Assembly: GCA_951406725.2 (NCBI GenBank)
Contig: OX597829.1
Location: forward strand, 310,001-374,000
Length of the DNA stretch: 64,000 nucleotides
Direction of reading: 5' to 3'
From: Octopus vulgaris
Lineage: Eukaryota
Within the stretch, counting starts at the first letter, position 1; every line of letters begins with the position of its first letter. A model generated the notes under the pieces. It made no database searches. It saw only the letters and a program-made list of their open reading frames with translations, and had not been told where the DNA came from. Shown here piece after piece: positions 1,654 to 61,269 of the stretch. Both the position numbers and the translations under genes were made by a program.

Positions 1654-2659
<1,006 letters not shown>

Positions 2660-3000
2660 TATATATAAATACATATATAAAAATATATTTATGTACATAT
2701 ATATGTATGCTTCTGTATATGTGTATATGCGTGTGCATCTATTTATGTATATTATATATATATATATATTATAAATATGCATATACATAGTTTGTATAAC
2801 GGTATATTTATATATGTTTATATGTATGTGTGAGTGTATGTACATATGTGTGTATATGCGTATATAAACGCATGTGTAAATACATATACATATACTTGCA
2901 CATATACACACATATACATTCGTACAGACATGCTTATATACACACACACACATCTATACGCATACATTCTCTCTTTCTCTCTCTCTCCCTATACACACAA

Positions 3001-14272: not shown

Positions 14273-14742
14273 CGTTAGCGTTAGGGTTAGTTTTAGGGTT
14301 AGGGTTAGTGTTAGGGTTAATTTTAGGGTTAGGGTTAGCGTTAGAGTTAGGGTTAGCGTTAAGGTTAGGATTAGTTTTAAGGTTAAGGCTAATTTTAGGG
14401 TTAGGATTAGGGTTAGAGTTAGGGCTAGTTTTAGTGTTAGGGTTAGTTTTAGAGTTAAAATTAAGATTAGTTTTAGGGTTAGGGTTAGAGTTAGGATTAG
14501 CGTTAGCGTTAACGTTAGGGTTAGTTTTAGCGTTAGGGTTAGTTTTAGGGTTAGAGTTATGGTTAGGGTTAGCGTTAAGTTTAGGGTCAATTTTAAGTTT
14601 AGAGTTAGTTTTATGGTAGGGTTAGTTTTAGGGTTAGGGCTAGTTTTAGGGTTAGGGTTTGTGTTAGGTTTAGGGTTAGTTTTAAGGTTAGTTTTAAGGT
14701 TAGGGTCAACGTTAGGGTTAGGGTTAGGGTTAGTTTAAGGTT
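14273..14742 (+). repeat. Degenerate interstitial telomeric-like array (TTAGGG with TTAGTT/TTAGCG/TTAGAG variants)
   Basis: Direct reading; 6-bp period retained throughout. Confidence 0.93.
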
Positions 14743-16255: not shown

Positions 16256-16559
16256 TTCAGTAGTTTTAATTTTATAGCGTGCTTTCACTTCACTACCGAG
16301 CGCAGCTCTGTGTGCCTTGGGTATGTGCTGTGATTTGTTGTGATGCGCTGATGGTTACTGTATTGAAAGTGTTTTGCGTAGGATGTGTGCAGTGCCCAGT
16401 AGTGCAATTTTCTGTATGTTATATGTGTTTGTAAGTCCTGGTGTTTTTGTTATGTATTTGTCTGAATATTTTTTTATCATGCCTAATGCACCTACTATGA
16501 TAGGAATTGTTTCTGCTTTTAGATTCCACATTCGAGTTACCTAAATCTCCAGGTCTTTG

Positions 16560-16560
<1 letters not shown>
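16256..16560 (-). mobile_element. R4/Dong-type 3'-terminal fragment
   Basis: Translates to ...MWNLKAETIPIIVGALGMIKK...IQKIALLGTAHILRK; bounded by (TAA)n. Confidence 0.82.
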
Positions 16561-16618
<58 letters not shown>

Positions 16619-16619
16619 G

Positions 16620-17385
16620 TCATTTCATTTACTTTTAATCTGCATTTTTGGTGCAACCACTTGCCGGGGCACACCCAGCGCCCTAGGGCAAGTGAAGGTT
16701 AAGAGTTGTTGAAATATAGCTGAAAGCTTGGGGAGGGGAAGTAGAGAAATATTTCCATGTAATACAACACAAACATTTACATTCATAGGGTTTTTCTAAG
16801 GATGTGGGCAGTACTTGTTGGCACAATCTTTTGGATTTCCTTGAGACATGGTTCTCCAGGGATATTGTCTAGGTGTTTCTAATATCCCTTTTTTTATCAT
16901 ACCTAGGGCACCTACAATAACAGGAACAGTTTTTGTTTTAAGATTCCACATCTTTAGTATTTCGATTTCCAGGTCCTTATATTTACTAAGTTTGTCGAAT
17001 TCCTTTACAGATATATTGTTATCAGTGGGGACGCTTACCTCTATTAGTCTGCAGGTATTTTCTTCCCTGTCTTTAACAATTATGTCTGGTCGATTAGCCT
17101 TCATCGTTCTGTCAGTGTTGACTGGAAAATCCCAGAGGATGGTGACATTTTTACCTTCAACAACTGGCTGAGGATGGCGTTCATACCAGTTAGCAGGAGT
17201 GCCAAATTTGTAGTGTTTACATATCTTCCAATGTATATACTGTCCTACTCTATCGTGGCGATTTTTGTATTCGTTTGGTGTCAGCACAGGACATCCGGAA
17301 ACGAGATGGTCTATTGTTTCGTCAAATGTGTCGCAGAATCTGCATTTAGGGTCAGTATCGTTTCGGAGAACGCTAGTCTGGTAAT
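16620..17385 (-). mobile_element. R4/Dong-type element, sense 3' segment (zinc knuckle + REL endonuclease)
   Basis: NYQTS...CRFC...ETIDHLVSGC...EYKNRHDRVGQYIHWKIC...ILWDFPVNTD...NRPDIIVKD...KEFDKLSKYKDL. Confidence 0.92.
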
Positions 17386-17402
17386 TTTTTTTTTTTTTTT
17401 TT

Positions 17403-18421
17403 GCATGGCACTGATCCCACTCTCAAACGAATTGGATAATACCAGATATGGGTACAAAGTTTTTAGTAAGTCAATAAACCTCCTTTTCTATATGGACGAC
17501 CTAAAGCTGTTTGCCAGCTGTTTGACCAAGAGCTAGAAGGGCTGTTAACAACTGTTAAAGAGTTTAGCAATGATATCGGAATGGATTTTGGCCTTGATAA
17601 GTGTGCTAAAGCAACTTTTATAAGAGCCAAACTCAAGCAAACAGATTCTGTTAAATTAGATATTGACACTACCATCAAGGAACTTGACCCACAAAAAAGT
17701 TACAAATACCTAGGAATCAACGAAGGAGATGGTATACATCATGCTACTATGAAGGAAAAAATAAGAAAGGAATACTATAGGAGAATAAGGCTTGTACTGA
17801 AGACTGAACTCAACTCCAAAAATTGCATTGAGGCCATTAACACCCTGGCACTTCCAGTAGTCCAGTACAGTTTTAACATTATTAACTGGAACCTTACGGA
17901 ACTCCAACGCTTGGTCAGGAAGACAAGAAAATTACTGACATCCAAGAACATGCACCACCCTAAGGCAGATGTAGACCGCCTGTACCTACCTAGAATCAGC
18001 GGGGGGAAAGGAATGATGCAATTAGAGCTGTGCTATAAGACCTCCACTGTAGGAATGAACAGGTACCTATCTAGTACAAAGGATTGGATGCTGCGACTTG
18101 TGTGCGAACACGAAAGCAGCAAAAAGCTGCATTCTATTGTCAAGGAAGCTTATAAGTTCGAAAGGGAACTAGACATTAACCTTGAATCAGATGAAGAGCC
18201 GGAAACCACTGCTACCAAGCAAGCAAAGCGAATCAAGCAGACTGCAAAAAAACGGGCAGAATCAAATTGAGAGGCGGTGGAGCCAGAAGCCCCTGCATGG
18301 ACAATATATTCTCCGAAGCCAAAATGCTGATGTAGACCAAGCAACAACCCATCAGTGGCTGAAGAGTTCTGGATTGAAAGAAGAAACTGAAGGCTTCATA
18401 TTGGCAGCACAAGATCAAAGC
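17403..18421 (+). mobile_element. R4/Dong-type element, inverted 5' segment (RT C-terminal half)
   Basis: FCMALIPLS...LFYMDDLKLF...FGLDKCAK...YKYLGI...HHPKADVDRLYLPR...ETEGFILAAQDQS. Confidence 0.92.
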
Positions 18422-24869: not shown

Positions 24870-25062
24870 GGTAAACAGTAAAAATAATTACAGACATGGA
24901 CAAGAACATGAAACACCACAGAGACGACACAAGAACCACAGGACGGGACATTCGAAGCCCTCAGTCATCAGTCAAGAACCAGATCATCTTAGCAATTTCG
25001 GCTGATTAATCTTGATATACACACATATATCATACATAGATGCATTCATATATATATTTACA

Positions 25063-25360
25063 TATATAATATAATTCGAGACAAAACCACTATTTTAAAA
25101 CCAAACAAGGAAAGACTTAATGAATACATAAAAATTTAATATAAATTAAATAATTTAATTTATTATTAATATTATTAATTAATATTAATATTATTAATTA
25201 TTTAATTTATATTAAAATTTTATGTATTGATTAAGTCTTTCCTTGTTTGGTTTTAAAATAGTGGTTCTGTCTCGAATTATATTATATAATATTTTACTAT
25301 AAAATTGGATTTAACCCTAAATCTGATTTTTCCCTGTAATTTTGGATTCATTCCCTAATA
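25063..25360 (+). mobile_element. Asymmetric palindromic insert (PLE-like terminus)
   Basis: Inverted arms ~25063-25155 and ~25197-25288, unique ~70-nt tail, then (TA)n. Confidence 0.65.
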
Positions 25361-25374
25361 TATATTATAATTAT

Positions 25375-25495
<121 letters not shown>

Positions 25496-25532
25496 GTAAG
25501 TTTGGATTTATATCCCCTCAAATAATTATTAA

Positions 25533-25579
<47 letters not shown>

Positions 25580-25652
25580 TTAGACAAAATGAGATAAAGC
25601 CAAGGGTGTGATGAGTTTTCAGGACATTTATAAGGAAAGAGACATAGATATA

Positions 25653-25700
25653 GTCTTACAACTGTTTCTGGGATTTTATGGATATCCCTTCATCAGAGAC
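25653..25700 (-). ncRNA. Minimal type I hammerhead ribozyme motif
   Basis: Minus strand GTCT-CTGATGA-A-GGGAT(atccataaa)ATCCC-A-GAAA-CAGTT-GTA-AGAC: intact core, stems I and II pair, near-palindromic stem III ACAGTTGT, GUA site. Confidence 0.8.
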
Positions 25701-27384
25701 GATGTGAGATGGTTAAATGGAGGTAAATATTTGAGTTAGAAATAAGGAATTATTATGGAAAAGGAGGAGATACGGAATATAGAGGGAAATATGAGAATGA
25801 AAGTAGAAATGAAAATATAAAATATATAAAGATATTGTAGTTGAAGTTGCATTATTCAAGGAAAGTGGTGTATAGAAGTGGTAAAAAAGTTTCCTGTACA
25901 CCTTTGTATATATATATATACGCATACATACACACACACTCCCACACATACACACACACACACACATCACTGCATAGACGTATAGTATAGTAGAAAAGGC
26001 ACAAAAGAACAGAAAAGTTTCGTGATTTTTCAGCAACGTACGTTTCAAATAGAATAACGTTTTAATAAAATTGCAATACAGCATTTAGGTTCATTTAATC
26101 GATTCCATATTTGATCGATTAAAATGCTATTGGGTGGAATTTAAAAACATCAAATCTGCTTATTATATTGTTTAACATTTTAATGGAGTAATTAACAAAT
26201 CTGGGTCAACTTGTTCCCTCATTTGTATTTCACCGTTTCACCAATCAAAGGGGCAGGGCGGTATTCTTTATAGACTACTTAGGAAAAGGGAATTGTAATT
26301 TGATACCGTGTTCATCCAAGCGTTTGAGGCAGCTAGAGTGATACAAGCAACAGCACTTAGTCCCGGCCACTCCTGTATTTTCACTGACTAATTCATTAAC
26401 AGATAGATCATGGAGTATGTTGGTAATCCTACTCAGTCGATATATTATTCAGGTCGAAAGGAATTCTTTTTTTATCGGCAATATCGCTCACAATGAGAAT
26501 TACGAATAAAGTAAGTCAGGCTGGAGCAATAATATTTCGAAGGGGAAAATATTAGGAGTTATTTATATAAATTATTTACTTATTCCTTCTTTAATACGTC
26601 TCGGTCGGTTCAGACTCAAAATATGCGTCTCTGTAATGTACGTGAAAGAAAAACTTCTCTCAACACACTTGGTTCATTGACGCAGTGGATTCTGGGATAC
26701 CAGTCTTAATATATGTGTCTCATCAGCGCGATGTAAGCTCGGGCCCTTGTATCTGGCCATGTAGTTGTCCTTTTGTTTAAATTTTCAGCGAACAAATTGT
26801 TTTGTGATAGAAGCTTATATCTGCCAATCGATATAAAATCGTTGTTTGCACCATCAACAGCGAGATCTGGAATGAATATTTGCATATTTATTGATAATGC
26901 GTCCAAGCAGGTTAAGACACAAATTATGCTAGTCATAGTAATGTCTGTCATCGGAGAAAAGCTTATTTCTTTTATGAGAATAAAAGAGAAGCTTTACCGC
27001 ATTAGTTAATTAAATGGCAGCTGGTAACCTGAAACTTCGAAATCCCTTACAATCTTTACGTTGTACAAGAATTAACAAATATATATTCTATTAAAACTTA
27101 TTGAGCAAACCTCATTTTAATGTTGAGCTGTTAACGTGTGTCCGCGCAAGTTTGCGTGTGTAAAGTTACGATATATAAAGTTGCGAGTTTTCCCTCCTGA
27201 AGAGGTAAGCCGGTTTACGGTGTTTCTATCTGGCCATGTACATGTTGCATAGCCTTGACTTTTTGCACATTCCATTTGTTAATTATGAACATCACGACTA
27301 TGACGTAATTCTCAGCTCCGAGAAACAGCAGTTGAATTATAAAAAAAAAAAGCTATATGCATTTGTCCACAGATTTTCTATACC

Positions 27385-41804: not shown

Positions 41805-41994
41805 CATAAGGGACTAAAGCCATCTGAATATGGCTAGGGACAGGGCAGGGTGGTGGGGGTGTTACTGTTGCATTTAGCCCCAGGCAGTAACACCCCCACC
41901 ACCCTGCCCTGTCCCTAGCCATATTCAGATGGCTTTAGTCCCTTATGTTATCGAGCAGTTACTGTCTATATCTCTTTTAGAGAATTATTATTGC
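41801..41994 (+). mobile_element. Asymmetric palindromic insert with perfect 67-bp arms (PLE-like terminus)
   Basis: Arms 41801-41867 and 41885-41951, 17-bp spacer, 43-nt tail, (TA)n on both sides. Confidence 0.75.
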
Positions 41995-43564: not shown

Positions 43565-44180
43565 TAATAAATAAAACATATGCATATATATATACATATA
43601 TGTACGTACCTGCCTCTACATGTATATATACACGCATATATGAGTACAGGACACAAAAAAAACGTCGAACAAAATGAGAAACGAAAACATAGACACAAAC
43701 CCAAGGAACTGGACATTTTTCTTAAACAACAACAAAAAATAGAGTACAGGACAAATAACACAAGGAAAAAACCCCTTTGTTTTTGTTACCATTTTTACCC
43801 CTCTACAAAAAGATCTCAAATTTTATTTGATTTGCTTTTCGCAGGAAGGAAAGTTTCTATCGAAGATACGTCTCGCCTTCACCTTCGAAACGTAGAGTAG
43901 ATGAAACCATGGCGACTGAAGAAGGTTTTTTCCTTGTGTTATTTGTCCTGTACTCTATTTTTTTGTTGTTTAAGAAAAATGTCCAGTTCCTTGGGTTTGT
44001 GTCTATGTTTTCGTTTCTCATTTTGTTCGACGTTTTTTTGGTGTCCTATATATCATATATGCGTGTATATATACATGTAGAGGTAGGTACGTACATATAT
44101 GTTTATATATATGCATATGTTTTATTTATTAATATATTATATGACGGAACGGACGCATCCCTTTCTAAGTAAGATTTTCT

Positions 44181-52004: not shown

Positions 52005-54440
52005 TTTTTATCTAGTTTCAGCTCACGAGCCGTAGCCATGCTGGGGCACCGCCATTTGGTGTTGCTACATGATTTTACTTCACGAATGCTTTTTAGCAAT
52101 TGACATTTGGTGCATGACGGAGTTTGATGCAGCTGCCCTCATCAGCACCTCCTGCCGCGAAGTTGGTTCATCTGGGACACCTGACAGGAAGAGGTCCAGC
52201 TTTATTTTGAAGACACCTACATCCACCCCATGCAGGTCTCTCAGGTCCTTCGGGAGGATATTGAAGAGCTGTGGACCTCTTAAGCCCAGGCTATTGCAGT
52301 ATCTTGTCCTACATCTTGATGGCAAATTTGGAGTCCTTGGCACTATGCAGTGGCGCCCAATTCTAGTTAGTGTAACTCTCGATGCCAAAGTTTGGGACAA
52401 GTCATTCCAGGATCTTCCAGGTGTATATTATGGCATATCTTTCTCGCCTACACTCTAATCTCTTGAGTCTTTCCCAATATAGAGGCTATCTTCTTTGTGT
52501 AGCTTCTTTGGATTGCCTCAAGTTCTGAGATTAATTTGACACTGGTTGGTGACCATAGCTGAGAGCAATAGTCAAAGTAGCTTAGGACAAGTGTCCTCCA
52601 GAGGACCATCATGGTTTCCTGGTCTCTTGTTCTAAAAGTTCTAAGAATCCATCCGGTCAGCCGCCTACATTTCATGTAAATGGCCAGGTTTCGCACTGAT
52701 TGTGCCTCTGGGATTGAAATCCCTCCAGGTCCAGTGTATTTATTGGGTATTGCATTTAGTTTTGCATGCTGATAGCATAAAGCTTGAAACTTTTCAGCAT
52801 TGAACTGCATGCTATTCTTTTCAGCCCACTTGTATATTTCGTCCAGCTCACATTGCAGGTGCATAGTGTCTTCAGGGTTCTGTATTGCCTGTGAAACTTT
52901 TGTATCATCTGCATAACTTGTAATCGTGGCTCTCTGCGTGGCTGAGGGCATGTCTGAGAGGGCCATTAGGAACAATAGTGGTCCCAAAACAGTGCCCTGC
53001 GGAACACCGCTCACTATTTACGTGTCATTGGAAGTGGTCCTATTGGCTACTACCTTCTGACTTCTATCCTTCAGAAAGTCATGAAGCCATTCTCCCAATT
53101 TTCCAACTATGCCAAGATCACGCAGTTTGTGACATATCATTCTATGATCTACTTTATCAAAGGCCTTTGCGAAGTCGGGATATAACACTTCCACATTTCA
53201 GTGGTTGTTGGGTGTCAAGCAGCAAGTCATTTTCTTCAAGGAAGGTAATTAGTTTCCTTCTGGCTATTTGTTCCATGACCTTGCTGACGTGTGAGGTCAG
53301 AGAGATAGGTCTGTAGTTTTTGGCCTCCGCTCTGCTACCTCCTTTATGAATAGGGCATATTTTACCCTCCTTCAGTTTTCTTGGAAGTTTGCCATTTGCT
53401 AGGAAGCTCTGAAAGAAGGACTGCAGTGGTCTTGCTAGGACTCTCTTACATACTTTTAGAAGGATTGCTTGGAATCCATCAGGGCCAGTAGCTGAGTTTG
53501 GGTTCATTTCATCTATAGCCTTTATTACACCGTCTTCCTTTATATATTGATGTAATCAATCATCGTTGCCTCTGATTTTATATCTGCAGTGGTAAAGAAG
53601 TCAGTTGGATAGCTGACTTGAAAATGCCCTAGGGGTGGAGTGAAAATACTTTTGAATTGCTCATTTAGTATTTCACTTATCCTCATTGGATTTCCTGTGA
53701 GTGTACCATCTTTTTCGAGGAGTGGCCCTGTCCTGCAGTGCACCGAAGCTGTTTCTTTGGCAAACTTGTAGAAAGCTCTGGGGTTAGATTTTATGTTGTC
53801 TATAGCCCAGGTTTCTTTGCCTGCTCTTTCTTTTTCATGGGAGAGTTGCAGACTTTTTTCAATTTCCAGCAGTTTTATTTTCAGGCGGGACTTTTCACTG
53901 CTTTCAAATTTTTTGTTTAGGCGATTTGAAACTTTTGTACGCCGTCTCATAAGAATTTTTCTTTCCCTGGGGATTTTGTTCTTGTGTACAGTGGCCTTTC
54001 TCTCTGGGACACATTTGTAGCATATGGCTTGCATTACAGACATGAATTGTTGAAGTTTCATGTCGATGTCCGATGAGGAGAGATATATATAGGCCATTTT
54101 TGTTTGAGGATCTCAATTTGTTTCCAGTTTGCCTTATGGAAGTTCAAGCTGGAAAAATTCTGAGAGTTTCTTGTAGGCTGCATGTCCATGGTTTCCTTTG
54201 GCCCGTACATGGTCAGCTCTACCGTGTTGTGATCCGAGAGTAGCGTCGGTGTCACTTTCACATTATGGATGAGATCCATATTATTTGTGAATCAGAGATC
54301 TATTATGTTACCTGTCCTGGTTGGCTGGAGTACTATTTCTTCCATGTGCAAAGTGTTGATGAGGTTCAAGAGGGACTTCACCTGTCCTTGTTCGCATCGT
54401 GTCATTCCTGGAAGAGAAAGGCATTCGGGCCATCTGACAT
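52005..54440 (-). mobile_element. CR1-like LINE, 5'-truncated, disrupted ORF2 (APE end + RT)
   Basis: PTLLSDHN; IKSNPRAFYKF; SATGPDG; NYRPISLTS; DFAKAFDKVD; SGVPQGTVLGPLLF; SYADDTKV; frameshifts and deletions. Confidence 0.92.
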
Positions 54441-60179: not shown

Positions 60180-60900
60180 CTGTTGAAGTGTTTACAGACT
60201 GGTTTGGATTGGATGCCTTGGTGGTCGAGTTGGAGTTCGAGTGCTGGACAAGCGAGTCTGAAGCTCTTTCCTCAACACAGCATCATATTTATTGTGGATA
60301 TTCAGACGCCGAGGAATGCCAACTGGCCCTTTTCTCTCTTTCACTTATCCGGAACTTTGCCCGCACCAAACTATGGTCTGTCCAGCATTCCAATCCATAA
60401 AAGGATTTTACATTATAAATGTCATAGATATAATGGACATAATCCAGAAAGTGCCAAACTTTAGATCTTGGATGCATCCACGTTGTTGTATGATAACCTT
60501 TATGCATAAAATGAGTGTTTGCGATGTAAAGTCCATGTTCATCGCAAAGCTCCAGCAGCATGAGACCATTGCTATTCATTTTCCCTACACCAAGGTTCCA
60601 TGTTTGCCTGTCTGTTCCAACACTAGCATTGAAATCCCCCAGTAGGATGACTTTATCAGAATTGGGGATTTTTAAAGCCAACACCAGCCTCCTTCAGCCT
60701 CCCCTTCCAAAAAAGGTGTATCGACCTCCTACTTCCTCAAGCTGACCATCACCTTCTATATTAGTCATTCAGAGAGCAGCTATATTGATGTTACAGCGGT
60801 TCAGCTCGCGTGAAACGAATGCAATGCGTCTTTGAGGCCTACAATCATTCTTGTTCTCCAACAGAGTGCGCACATTCCACATGAAATGTTCAAGTTCTAT
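60180..60900 (-). mobile_element. RTE-like LINE, AP-endonuclease fragment
   Basis: WNVRTLL; NIAALSE; KVILLGDFNASVG; NSNGLMLLELC...IANTHF...TTWMHPRSKVWHFLDY. Confidence 0.88.
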
Positions 60901-61269
60901 CCAGATTTGTAAAAAAAAAGTTTTGTTTCTCGAACGAAGGGTGGACATCCGTCAGCCGCGCTAAACATTCATAATACATACATACATACATACATACATA
61001 CATACATACATACATACATACATACATACATACATACATGGTGGCTGCCCCCTCGTTATCGAGTATGGCCATTGCACGAAGCTTAACGGTTATCGCTGCT
61101 GTGATCGAATGTGACTTTTTTAGCCCAGCTAAAGATCTACAATGTCTTTACCGGTAATGGCCAGCTCTAGTTGTAATTGGGCTGCATGCACCTTTGTATG
61201 TCGTTTAAGTCCTCCTGCTGAATTAAACTCCCTTCAACATGCCTGACAGATATGATTAGTATGGTGTAC

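What the first reader, a model, noticed from the sequence alone, without database searches (positions are those of the whole stretch)
25653..25700. Best-preserved hammerhead: fully canonical core
Seen (minus): GUCU-CUGAUGA-A-GGGAU/AUCCC-A-GAAA-CAGUU-GUA^AGAC. It lies 76 nt from the end of the insert in (TA)n. Prime candidate for activity, probably as a dimer given the 2-bp stem III.
Basis: partly seen in the sequence, partly recalled or inferred. Interest (0 to 1): 0.7.

Follow-up and report, generated by a model that had tools for sequence, protein, structure and literature searches.

The report
Worn jumping-gene hammerhead, odd A·A closure
This motif has the shape of a self-cutting hammerhead RNA and sits at the tail of a truncated copy of a common Penelope-type jumping gene; it carries two private mutations predicted to weaken the paired form it would need to cut, so it is likely an inert fossil of a known kind and not the best-preserved copy.

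Summary
The motif is real (25700-25653, minus strand). All 11 invariant core bases are intact, and the predicted cut at 25657/25656 is placed correctly.

It is the minimal type I hammerhead at the 3' end of a 5'-truncated Hydra-clade Penelope-like element in (TA)n. Longer copies carry RT and GIY-YIG remnants on the same strand.

Two claims fail. 'Fully canonical': stem II is closed by A·A, not G10.1-C11.1. This is family-wide (614 genome matches), recurs in a second family (257), and is absent from 26 published Hydra rows, 14 of which have U·U there. 'Best-preserved/prime candidate': two private changes shorten stem II and break the stem III palindrome, and 208 genomic copies are better. The double-hammerhead fold is the predicted minimum-energy state for family-type dimers but not for this copy's homodimer. 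No partner copy lies within 84 kb.

Shared changes avoid the core and palindrome, while private changes do not. That indicates selection in the source elements and neutral decay after insertion. Earlier scan notes report similar PLE hammerheads on other DNA. Cleavage is untested.

The parts
25582..25900 (-). 5'-truncated 3' end (pseudo-LTR region) of a Hydra-clade Penelope-like element; 13 of 319 positions (4.1%) differ from the family majority
   Evidence: longer copies with EN/RT remnants:
25653..25700 (-). Minimal type I hammerhead motif, in the same sense as the element's ORF
25697..25700 (-). Stem I, 5' arm (4 bp with 25653-25656)
25690..25696 (-). Core C3-A9, intact
25689..25689 (-). A at position 10.1, facing the A at 25669 (non-canonical closure; family-wide, 28 of 29 copies)
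25670..25688 (-). Stem-loop II: 5 bp here, 7 bp in the family; the private change at 25675 breaks pair 6
25669..25669 (-). A at position 11.1; the same A occurs in two other families or subfamilies of this genome
25665..25668 (-). Core G12-A15.1, intact
25658..25665 (-). 8-nt self-complementary stem III element for dimer formation; a perfect palindrome in the family, with two G·U pairs here after the private change at 25661
25656..25657 (-). Predicted cleavage site after GUA (untested)
   Evidence: NUH rule from established knowledge
25653..25656 (-). Stem I, 3' arm
25358..25576 (.). (TA)n-rich target tract at the element's 3' end
25907..25966 (.). (TA)n/(CA)n microsatellite at the truncated 5' junction

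Best explanation
The motif is the minimal type I hammerhead at the 3' end of a truncated Hydra-clade Penelope-like retrotransposon copy sitting in (TA)n; in the source elements it likely cut RNA only as a dimer through its palindromic stem III, and this copy is likely inert because two private mutations are predicted to weaken that dimer and no partner copy lies nearby. Shown: the sequence, the family, the linkage to RT and GIY-YIG remnants on the same strand, the family-wide A·A at the base of stem II, and the two private changes. Inferred: two motifs on one tandem transcript, or held together by the element's protein, pair their 8-nt palindromes, swap stem I strands and cut after GUA; the A·A pair stacks under A9·G12 in place of G10.1-C11.1 and is tolerated; after insertion, copies decay neutrally.
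For: Family: 2522 first-look candidates, the best 30 of the 40 scored at 88-93% identity. 26 of 29 run into a microsatellite at the same 3' end, by a crude regex.

Linkage to the ORF: 15 of 30 loci found through the endonuclease (the seed locus included) carry this 3' end downstream on the same strand. The EN remnants show a CxCX5C linker, VIYK..YIGS, and CxxC/CxH motifs, matching the Hydra definition. The RT remnant motifs resemble the Hydra alignment by eye.

Selection (46 copies, CpG and gap-adjacent cells left out): shared changes were 5 in the core (27.2 expected) and 4 in the palindrome (19.7 expected); singleton changes in the motif were 31 (31.2 expected).

Folding: the double hammerhead is the MFE for majority/majority (-30.7) and window/majority (-25.5) dimers, but not window/window (-17.4 versus MFE -20.4). 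No second copy lies in the window or 10 kb either side.

Literature: PLE minimal hammerheads show no monomer and low dimer cleavage, and an anole PLE hammerhead cut only with protein.
Against: No cleavage was measured. All 11 core bases of this copy are intact, a state found in 28 of 47 copies, and a heterodimer with an intact copy is predicted to fold correctly, so low activity in trans is possible. The GIY-YIG Pfam score is just under the cutoff (22.1 versus 22.6 bits), and Pfam found no RT domain in the L134 or L139 remnants; Hydra assignment rests on motifs, with no tree. Cells in the selection test are not independent, so its p-values are inflated. In the EN-found subset, singletons in the motif were also somewhat low (16 versus 24.1 expected, p about 0.05). 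Stem II shows no depletion of shared changes (34 versus 38.1). I could not tell whether the locus lies in a transcribed host gene.
Confidence: 0.8

Rival explanations
1. This copy is an active ribozyme in vivo, cutting a host read-through or intronic transcript as a dimer or heterodimer.
For: The core is intact, the window/majority dimer is predicted to form the double hammerhead, and family-related RNA reads exist in a related-species library.
Against: It has two private destabilising changes, the homodimer MFE is not a hammerhead, and no partner lies within 84 kb. P(stem I) is about 0 in the 219-nt context (the same holds for a majority copy as a monomer). RNA reads carry the majority alleles (X22: 73 of 79 at 25661 and 78 of 87 at 25675), with only 0, 4 and 0 reads at >=99% identity; that library is from a coded organism not shown to be this species. 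Singleton changes accumulate at the neutral rate.
Confidence: 0.1
2. The A·A closure disabled catalysis in this lineage, and the motif is kept as a dimerisation or protein-binding structure for packaging or reverse transcription.
For: G10.1-C11.1 is described as highly conserved in metazoan PLE hammerheads. Cleavage was not needed for insertion in vitro in the anole element. The palindrome is strongly conserved.
Against: The catalytic core itself is depleted of shared changes. A second family with different stems I, II and III keeps the core, the cut triplet and the same A·A. Non-Watson-Crick closures are common in Hydra hammerheads (15 of 26 rows are pyrimidine mismatches).
Confidence: 0.08
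3. A chance arrangement of core words in AT-rich DNA.
For: No Rfam match; the monomer fold is no more stable than shuffles.
Against: No hits in 100 Markov windows; 614 pattern matches versus 0 for the reversed control; fixed position at the 3' end of a PLE family.
Confidence: 0.01

Closest known systems
Hammerheads of Hydra-clade C-terminal-EN Penelope-like elements (Craig et al. 2021, PMC8557442, section 'Hydra' and File S2; includes Hydra-1_Obim)
   Same: Sense-strand motif about 100 nt from the 3' end, (TA)n insertion, CxCX5C EN linker. The acag/ctgt-type stem III and A17 match several rows (Hydra-1_aMil, Penelope-1_NV, Penelope-1_SK). A non-Watson-Crick 10.1·11.1 is common (my count of 26 rows: 14 U·U, 1 U·C, 3 G·U, 7 G-C, 1 bulge).
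   Different: None of the 26 rows has A·A. Stem III here has no loop (a pure 8-nt palindrome). The motif differs in sequence from Hydra-1_Obim's. The 3' region after the EN is long (about 1.3 kb) and contains microsatellite.
Minimal type I hammerheads in pLTRs of metazoan PLEs (Cervera and De la Pena 2014, PMC4209133)
   Same: Short stem I, long stem II, tiny palindromic stem III, extra base after A9, mostly solitary truncated copies, inverted pairs nearby, dimer dependence.
   Different: Their consensus keeps G10.1-C11.1 directly before GAAA; here a further A sits before G12. In their Fig. S3 text, 1 of 56 entries reads AGAAA (row not reliably assignable) and the D. willistoni row appears to have U·U, so there is precedent, not discussed in the parts I read.
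Poseidon_Ac (PAc) hammerhead, anole (Frangieh et al. 2024, PMC11167929)
   Same: PLE pLTR hammerhead; no read ends at the cut site in public RNA-seq; optional 3' tail on genomic copies.
   Different: Different clade. There, cleavage was shown and needed the element's protein; here nothing is tested, and no intact ORF was seen in the copies examined.
Non-LTR retrozymes (bioRxiv 10.64898/2026.07.22.740005, first of 5 parts read)
   Same: Type I hammerhead of PLE origin.
   Different: Retrozymes are short tandem units, each with a hammerhead. This copy is solitary; the only tandem set I examined (4 copies at 2.86-kb spacing) is a duplication of mixed repeat DNA.

Membership tests
Type I hammerhead ribozyme | 11 invariant core bases (C3 U4 G5 A6 G8 A9 G12 A13 A14 A15.1 U16.1) and H17 | tested here: met
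Type I hammerhead ribozyme | Three helices, open at stem I | tested here: met
   Stem I 4 bp, stem II 5 bp, stem III 2 bp (8 bp as dimer). The monomer MFE is a different fold.
Canonical hammerhead core | G10.1-C11.1 pair stacked directly on A9·G12 | tested here: not met
   A·A at 25689/25669; canonical arrangement
Type I hammerhead ribozyme | Self-cleavage 3' of H17 | not testable with these tools
   No assay. Fragmented cDNA libraries showed no end pile-up, which is uninformative.
Rfam hammerhead families | Covariance-model match | tested here: not met
   0 matches at E<=10 on 25580-25900
PLE minimal hammerhead | Short palindromic stem III | tested here: met
   Perfect palindrome in the family, two G·U pairs in this copy
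PLE minimal hammerhead | Located in the terminal repeat of an RT + GIY-YIG element, sense strand | tested here: met
   15 of 30 EN loci carry this end downstream on the same strand; RT remnants upstream
Hydra-clade PLE | C-terminal GIY-YIG with CxCX5C linker | tested here: met
   Motif seen in many copies; Pfam GIY-YIG E 1.9e-4, just below cutoff; definition
Hydra-clade PLE | CCHH absent; CxxC and CxH around the conserved E and N | tested here: met
   By eye on EN remnants
Hydra-clade PLE | (TA)n insertion preference | tested here: met
   26 of 29 copies end in a microsatellite, mostly (TA)n
Hydra-clade PLE | DKT and RWK motifs in the N-terminal RT region | tested here: inconclusive
   The five longest copies examined are truncated before this region; the related second family shows DKT.
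Hydra-clade PLE | Placement in the RT phylogeny | not tested
   Reference proteins were not held as stored sequences; no tree was built.
Non-LTR retrozyme | Short tandem units, each with a hammerhead | tested here: not met
   Single copy in 84 kb. 10 of 59 loci have a second motif within about 1.5 kb, and the first pair is inverted in all 10.

The most novel reading that the evidence does not exclude
An octopus-like lineage of Hydra Penelope elements uses a hammerhead variant in which a fixed A before G12 faces A, C or U instead of the G10.1-C11.1 pair. The A·A form extends the sheared A9·G12 stack and works as a built-in brake, so cleavage needs dimerisation plus the element's own protein; a single swap to G-C would release it.
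Probability: 0.2. Interest if true: 0.45.

Novelty: new member of a known kind. Interest (0 to 1): 0.2.

Why it matters
As a single locus it matters little: it is one worn copy among hundreds to thousands. At family level it adds an A·A closure to the known tolerance at hammerhead position 10.1·11.1. It also shows a clear pattern of selection on the core and dimer palindrome in source elements, with neutral decay after insertion. That supports a real role for PLE hammerheads in the transposition cycle, which is still an open question. The younger second family and the 208 intact copies are better test substrates than this one.

Tried and rejected
Rfam: whole window, 241 matches, the best 150 shown, none a hammerhead; locus alone, 0 matches.

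Neptune assignment: my first guess, dropped because the linker is CxCX5C and CCHH is absent.

Tandem array on C22 as a head-to-tail PLE or retrozyme: rejected; it is a 2.86-kb duplication of mixed repeat DNA holding a short truncated copy.

Sequencing runs: no RNA holder listed. Three raw RNA runs of a coded organism, about 6% of each read, gave 120, 203 and 138 family-like reads on both strands with no end pile-up. A second lay on a sister copy also showed no pile-up, with depth peaking on the motif. Such libraries cannot show a cut.

Host gene context: 28 of 176 stop-free window frames were scanned with Pfam (the call also held 2 locus proteins). Only retroelement domains were hit, so intronic versus intergenic is unresolved.

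Lunse et al. (RNA Biol 14:1499, on PLE hammerhead dimers) could not be read; only its title was seen in a reference list. It may already describe A·A variants.

Paper searches for data on a 10.1·11.1 mismatch and for octopus PLE hammerheads found none describing A·A. Cervera supplement part 3 of 3 and the figures were not seen.

Full report
Observation. It is the only relaxed hit in the window. A descriptor set to its stem lengths found no hits in 100 order-2 Markov windows. Rfam does not detect it, and the monomer folds no better than shuffles and not as a hammerhead.

Genomic setting. The window lies in a 2.8-Gb genome of 227 contigs, rich in microsatellites. I infer an octopus-like genome from these features and from earlier scan notes. 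The motif lies in a 320-bp insert between (TA)n tracts. The insert has 2522 first-look candidates in the genome; the best 30 of the 40 scored are 88-93% identical. The copies share one 3' end: 26 of 29 run straight into a microsatellite, and 5 of 29 by script (6 by eye) continue into a shared tail of about 130 nt. Their 5' ends vary. One long copy showed a decayed GIY-YIG endonuclease upstream on the same strand and an inverted truncated copy at its 5' end. Of 30 loci then found with that endonuclease, 15 (the seed included) carry the same 3' end downstream.

Clade. The endonuclease remnants have a CxCX5C linker, CxxC and CxH motifs and no CCHH. These are the features given for the Hydra clade (PMC8557442, section read). 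Pfam GIY-YIG scored E 1.9e-4, just below the cutoff. RT remnants in L132-L135 resemble the paper's Hydra alignment by eye, but Pfam did not call them and I built no tree. All family ORFs seen were broken.

Is the core canonical? The 11 invariant bases are intact, but the stem II closure is not canonical. An A follows A9 and another A precedes G12, where the standard fold has G10.1-C11.1. This is not decay: each A is present in 28 of 29 copies, and the pattern has 614 genome matches against 0 for the reversed control. A second, more homogeneous family has different stems I, II and III, a related endonuclease (38% identity) and the same A·A: 257 matches, control 0. Its two subfamilies use different palindromes. 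A sister subfamily has C or U facing the same A (274 matches). A separate set with the usual C before GAAA has 560 matches, control 3. In File S2 of PMC8557442 I count 14 U·U, 1 U·C, 3 G·U, 7 G-C and 1 bulge among 26 Hydra rows, and no A·A. In Fig. S3 of PMC4209133, 1 of 56 entries reads AGAAA. So a mismatch at this position is known for the clade, and A·A is a small variant. Searches found no paper on it, but the most relevant paper (Lunse et al.) was not readable.

Is it the best preserved? Only within the window. The copy is 4.1% from the family majority, against a median of 6.25% for 47 copies, but two of its changes fall in the motif. 25675 cuts stem II from 7 to 5 bp. 25661 turns the perfect 8-nt palindrome into one with two G·U pairs (self-duplex -3.4 versus -11.1 kcal/mol). 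Of 47 copies not picked on the motif, 28 have an intact core, 11 also have all stems and 5 match the majority exactly. Genome-wide, 63 match the majority 44-mer, 208 have the complete set of stems, and the window's own 48-mer occurs once. The double-hammerhead structure is the MFE for majority/majority (-30.7) and window/majority (-25.5) pairs, but lies 3 kcal/mol above the MFE for window/window. There is no second copy in the window or 10 kb either side. In 59 other loci, 10 have a second motif nearby, and the first pair is inverted in all 10; two of them hold further fragments, some in the same orientation.

Selection. I compared 46 copies, leaving out the query copy, CpG columns and gap-adjacent cells. 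Changes shared by two or more copies are rare in the core (5, expected 27.2), the palindrome (4, expected 19.7) and stem I (8, expected 19.0). They are not rare in stem II (34, expected 38.1) or loop II (21, expected 13.1). The A·A shows 0 shared changes against 3.2 expected, which is weak. Singleton changes in the motif occur at the flank rate (31, expected 31.2). This is the pattern expected if the motif was kept in transposing source elements and decays freely after insertion. Cells are not independent, and the 15 EN-found copies alone show a borderline singleton deficit (16 versus 24.1).

RNA. Three raw RNA runs of a coded organism, not shown to be this species, gave family-like reads on both strands. 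The reads mostly carry the majority alleles at 25661 and 25675, almost none reach 99% identity, and there is no pile-up of ends. This shows low-level family transcription and says nothing about cleavage.

Mechanism. Shown: anatomy, family, linkage, variant and decay. Inferred: two motifs pair their palindromes into an 8-bp shared stem III, exchange stem I strands and cut after GUA, probably to process tandem precursor RNA. Published minimal PLE hammerheads were inactive as monomers and weak as dimers (PMC4209133, parts 1-2 of 4). The anole PLE hammerhead cut only with the element's protein and was not needed for insertion in vitro (PMC11167929, parts 1-2 of 4). A review says the same about dimers (PMC6765202, passages). 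This solitary, ORF-less, twice-mutated copy is therefore likely silent.

Verdict. A real motif and a new member of a known kind. Interest is low (0.2). The only point worth a bench test is the family-level A·A closure, using intact copies.

Noticed in passing
L107-L131, L137-L139 (G000, 257 pattern matches): A second, much more homogeneous Hydra-like PLE family with a 4-bp stem II, the same A·A closure and two alternative stem III palindromes. L139 holds a 421-aa open RT stretch and L137 a 353-aa stretch with the endonuclease; often in close inverted pairs. Best substrate for testing the variant.
   Followed up: partly
window 25048-25152 (-) and 25194-25292 (+): Inverted pair of 3' tails 85-87% like the second family's end, without the hammerhead, about 300 bp from the finding in the same (TA)n-rich cluster.
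   Followed up: partly
L142-L153 (G000, most of 274 pattern matches): Sister subfamily with a longer stem II (about 10 bp with an internal A·C mismatch) and C or U at 10.1 facing the fixed A; same stem I and palindrome but different flanks.
   Followed up: partly
G000, e.g. C1:449381-449422: Another abundant hammerhead-like family with the usual G10.1-C11.1 closure (most of 560 pattern matches); flanks not examined.
   Followed up: no
L069-L072 (G000:C22:13923103-13931726): Four tandem 2.86-kb units of mixed repeat DNA, each holding an exact majority-type motif in the same orientation: one place where a dimer could form on a single transcript.
   Followed up: partly
L020, L023, L027, L029, L030, L003 downstream of the 3' end: An optional tail of about 130 nt after a short (TA)n, longer than the 30-40 nt tails described for other PLEs; not found at the 5' end of the five long copies checked.
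   Followed up: partly
window 43916-44070 (+): CUGAAGA-containing 3'-end-like repeat before (TA)n with no clear stem II or GAAA; probably a decayed end of another element.
   Followed up: no
window 41831-41921: Perfect GC-rich 37-bp inverted repeat with a short spacer, unrelated to the finding.
   Followed up: no
window 14274-14733 (+): About 77 degenerate TTAGGG-type hexamers, an interstitial telomere-like array.
   Followed up: no
window 52451-54112 (-), 60292-60951 (-), 16358-18267: Fragments of LINE-type retroelements (RVT_1 E 4e-11 at 52451-53017; weak endonuclease and zf-RVT hits elsewhere).
   Followed up: partly
window 2484-2667 (-): A 184-bp match (78%) to the microsatellite-rich internal 3' region of the same element family; may be low-complexity similarity.
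   Followed up: no
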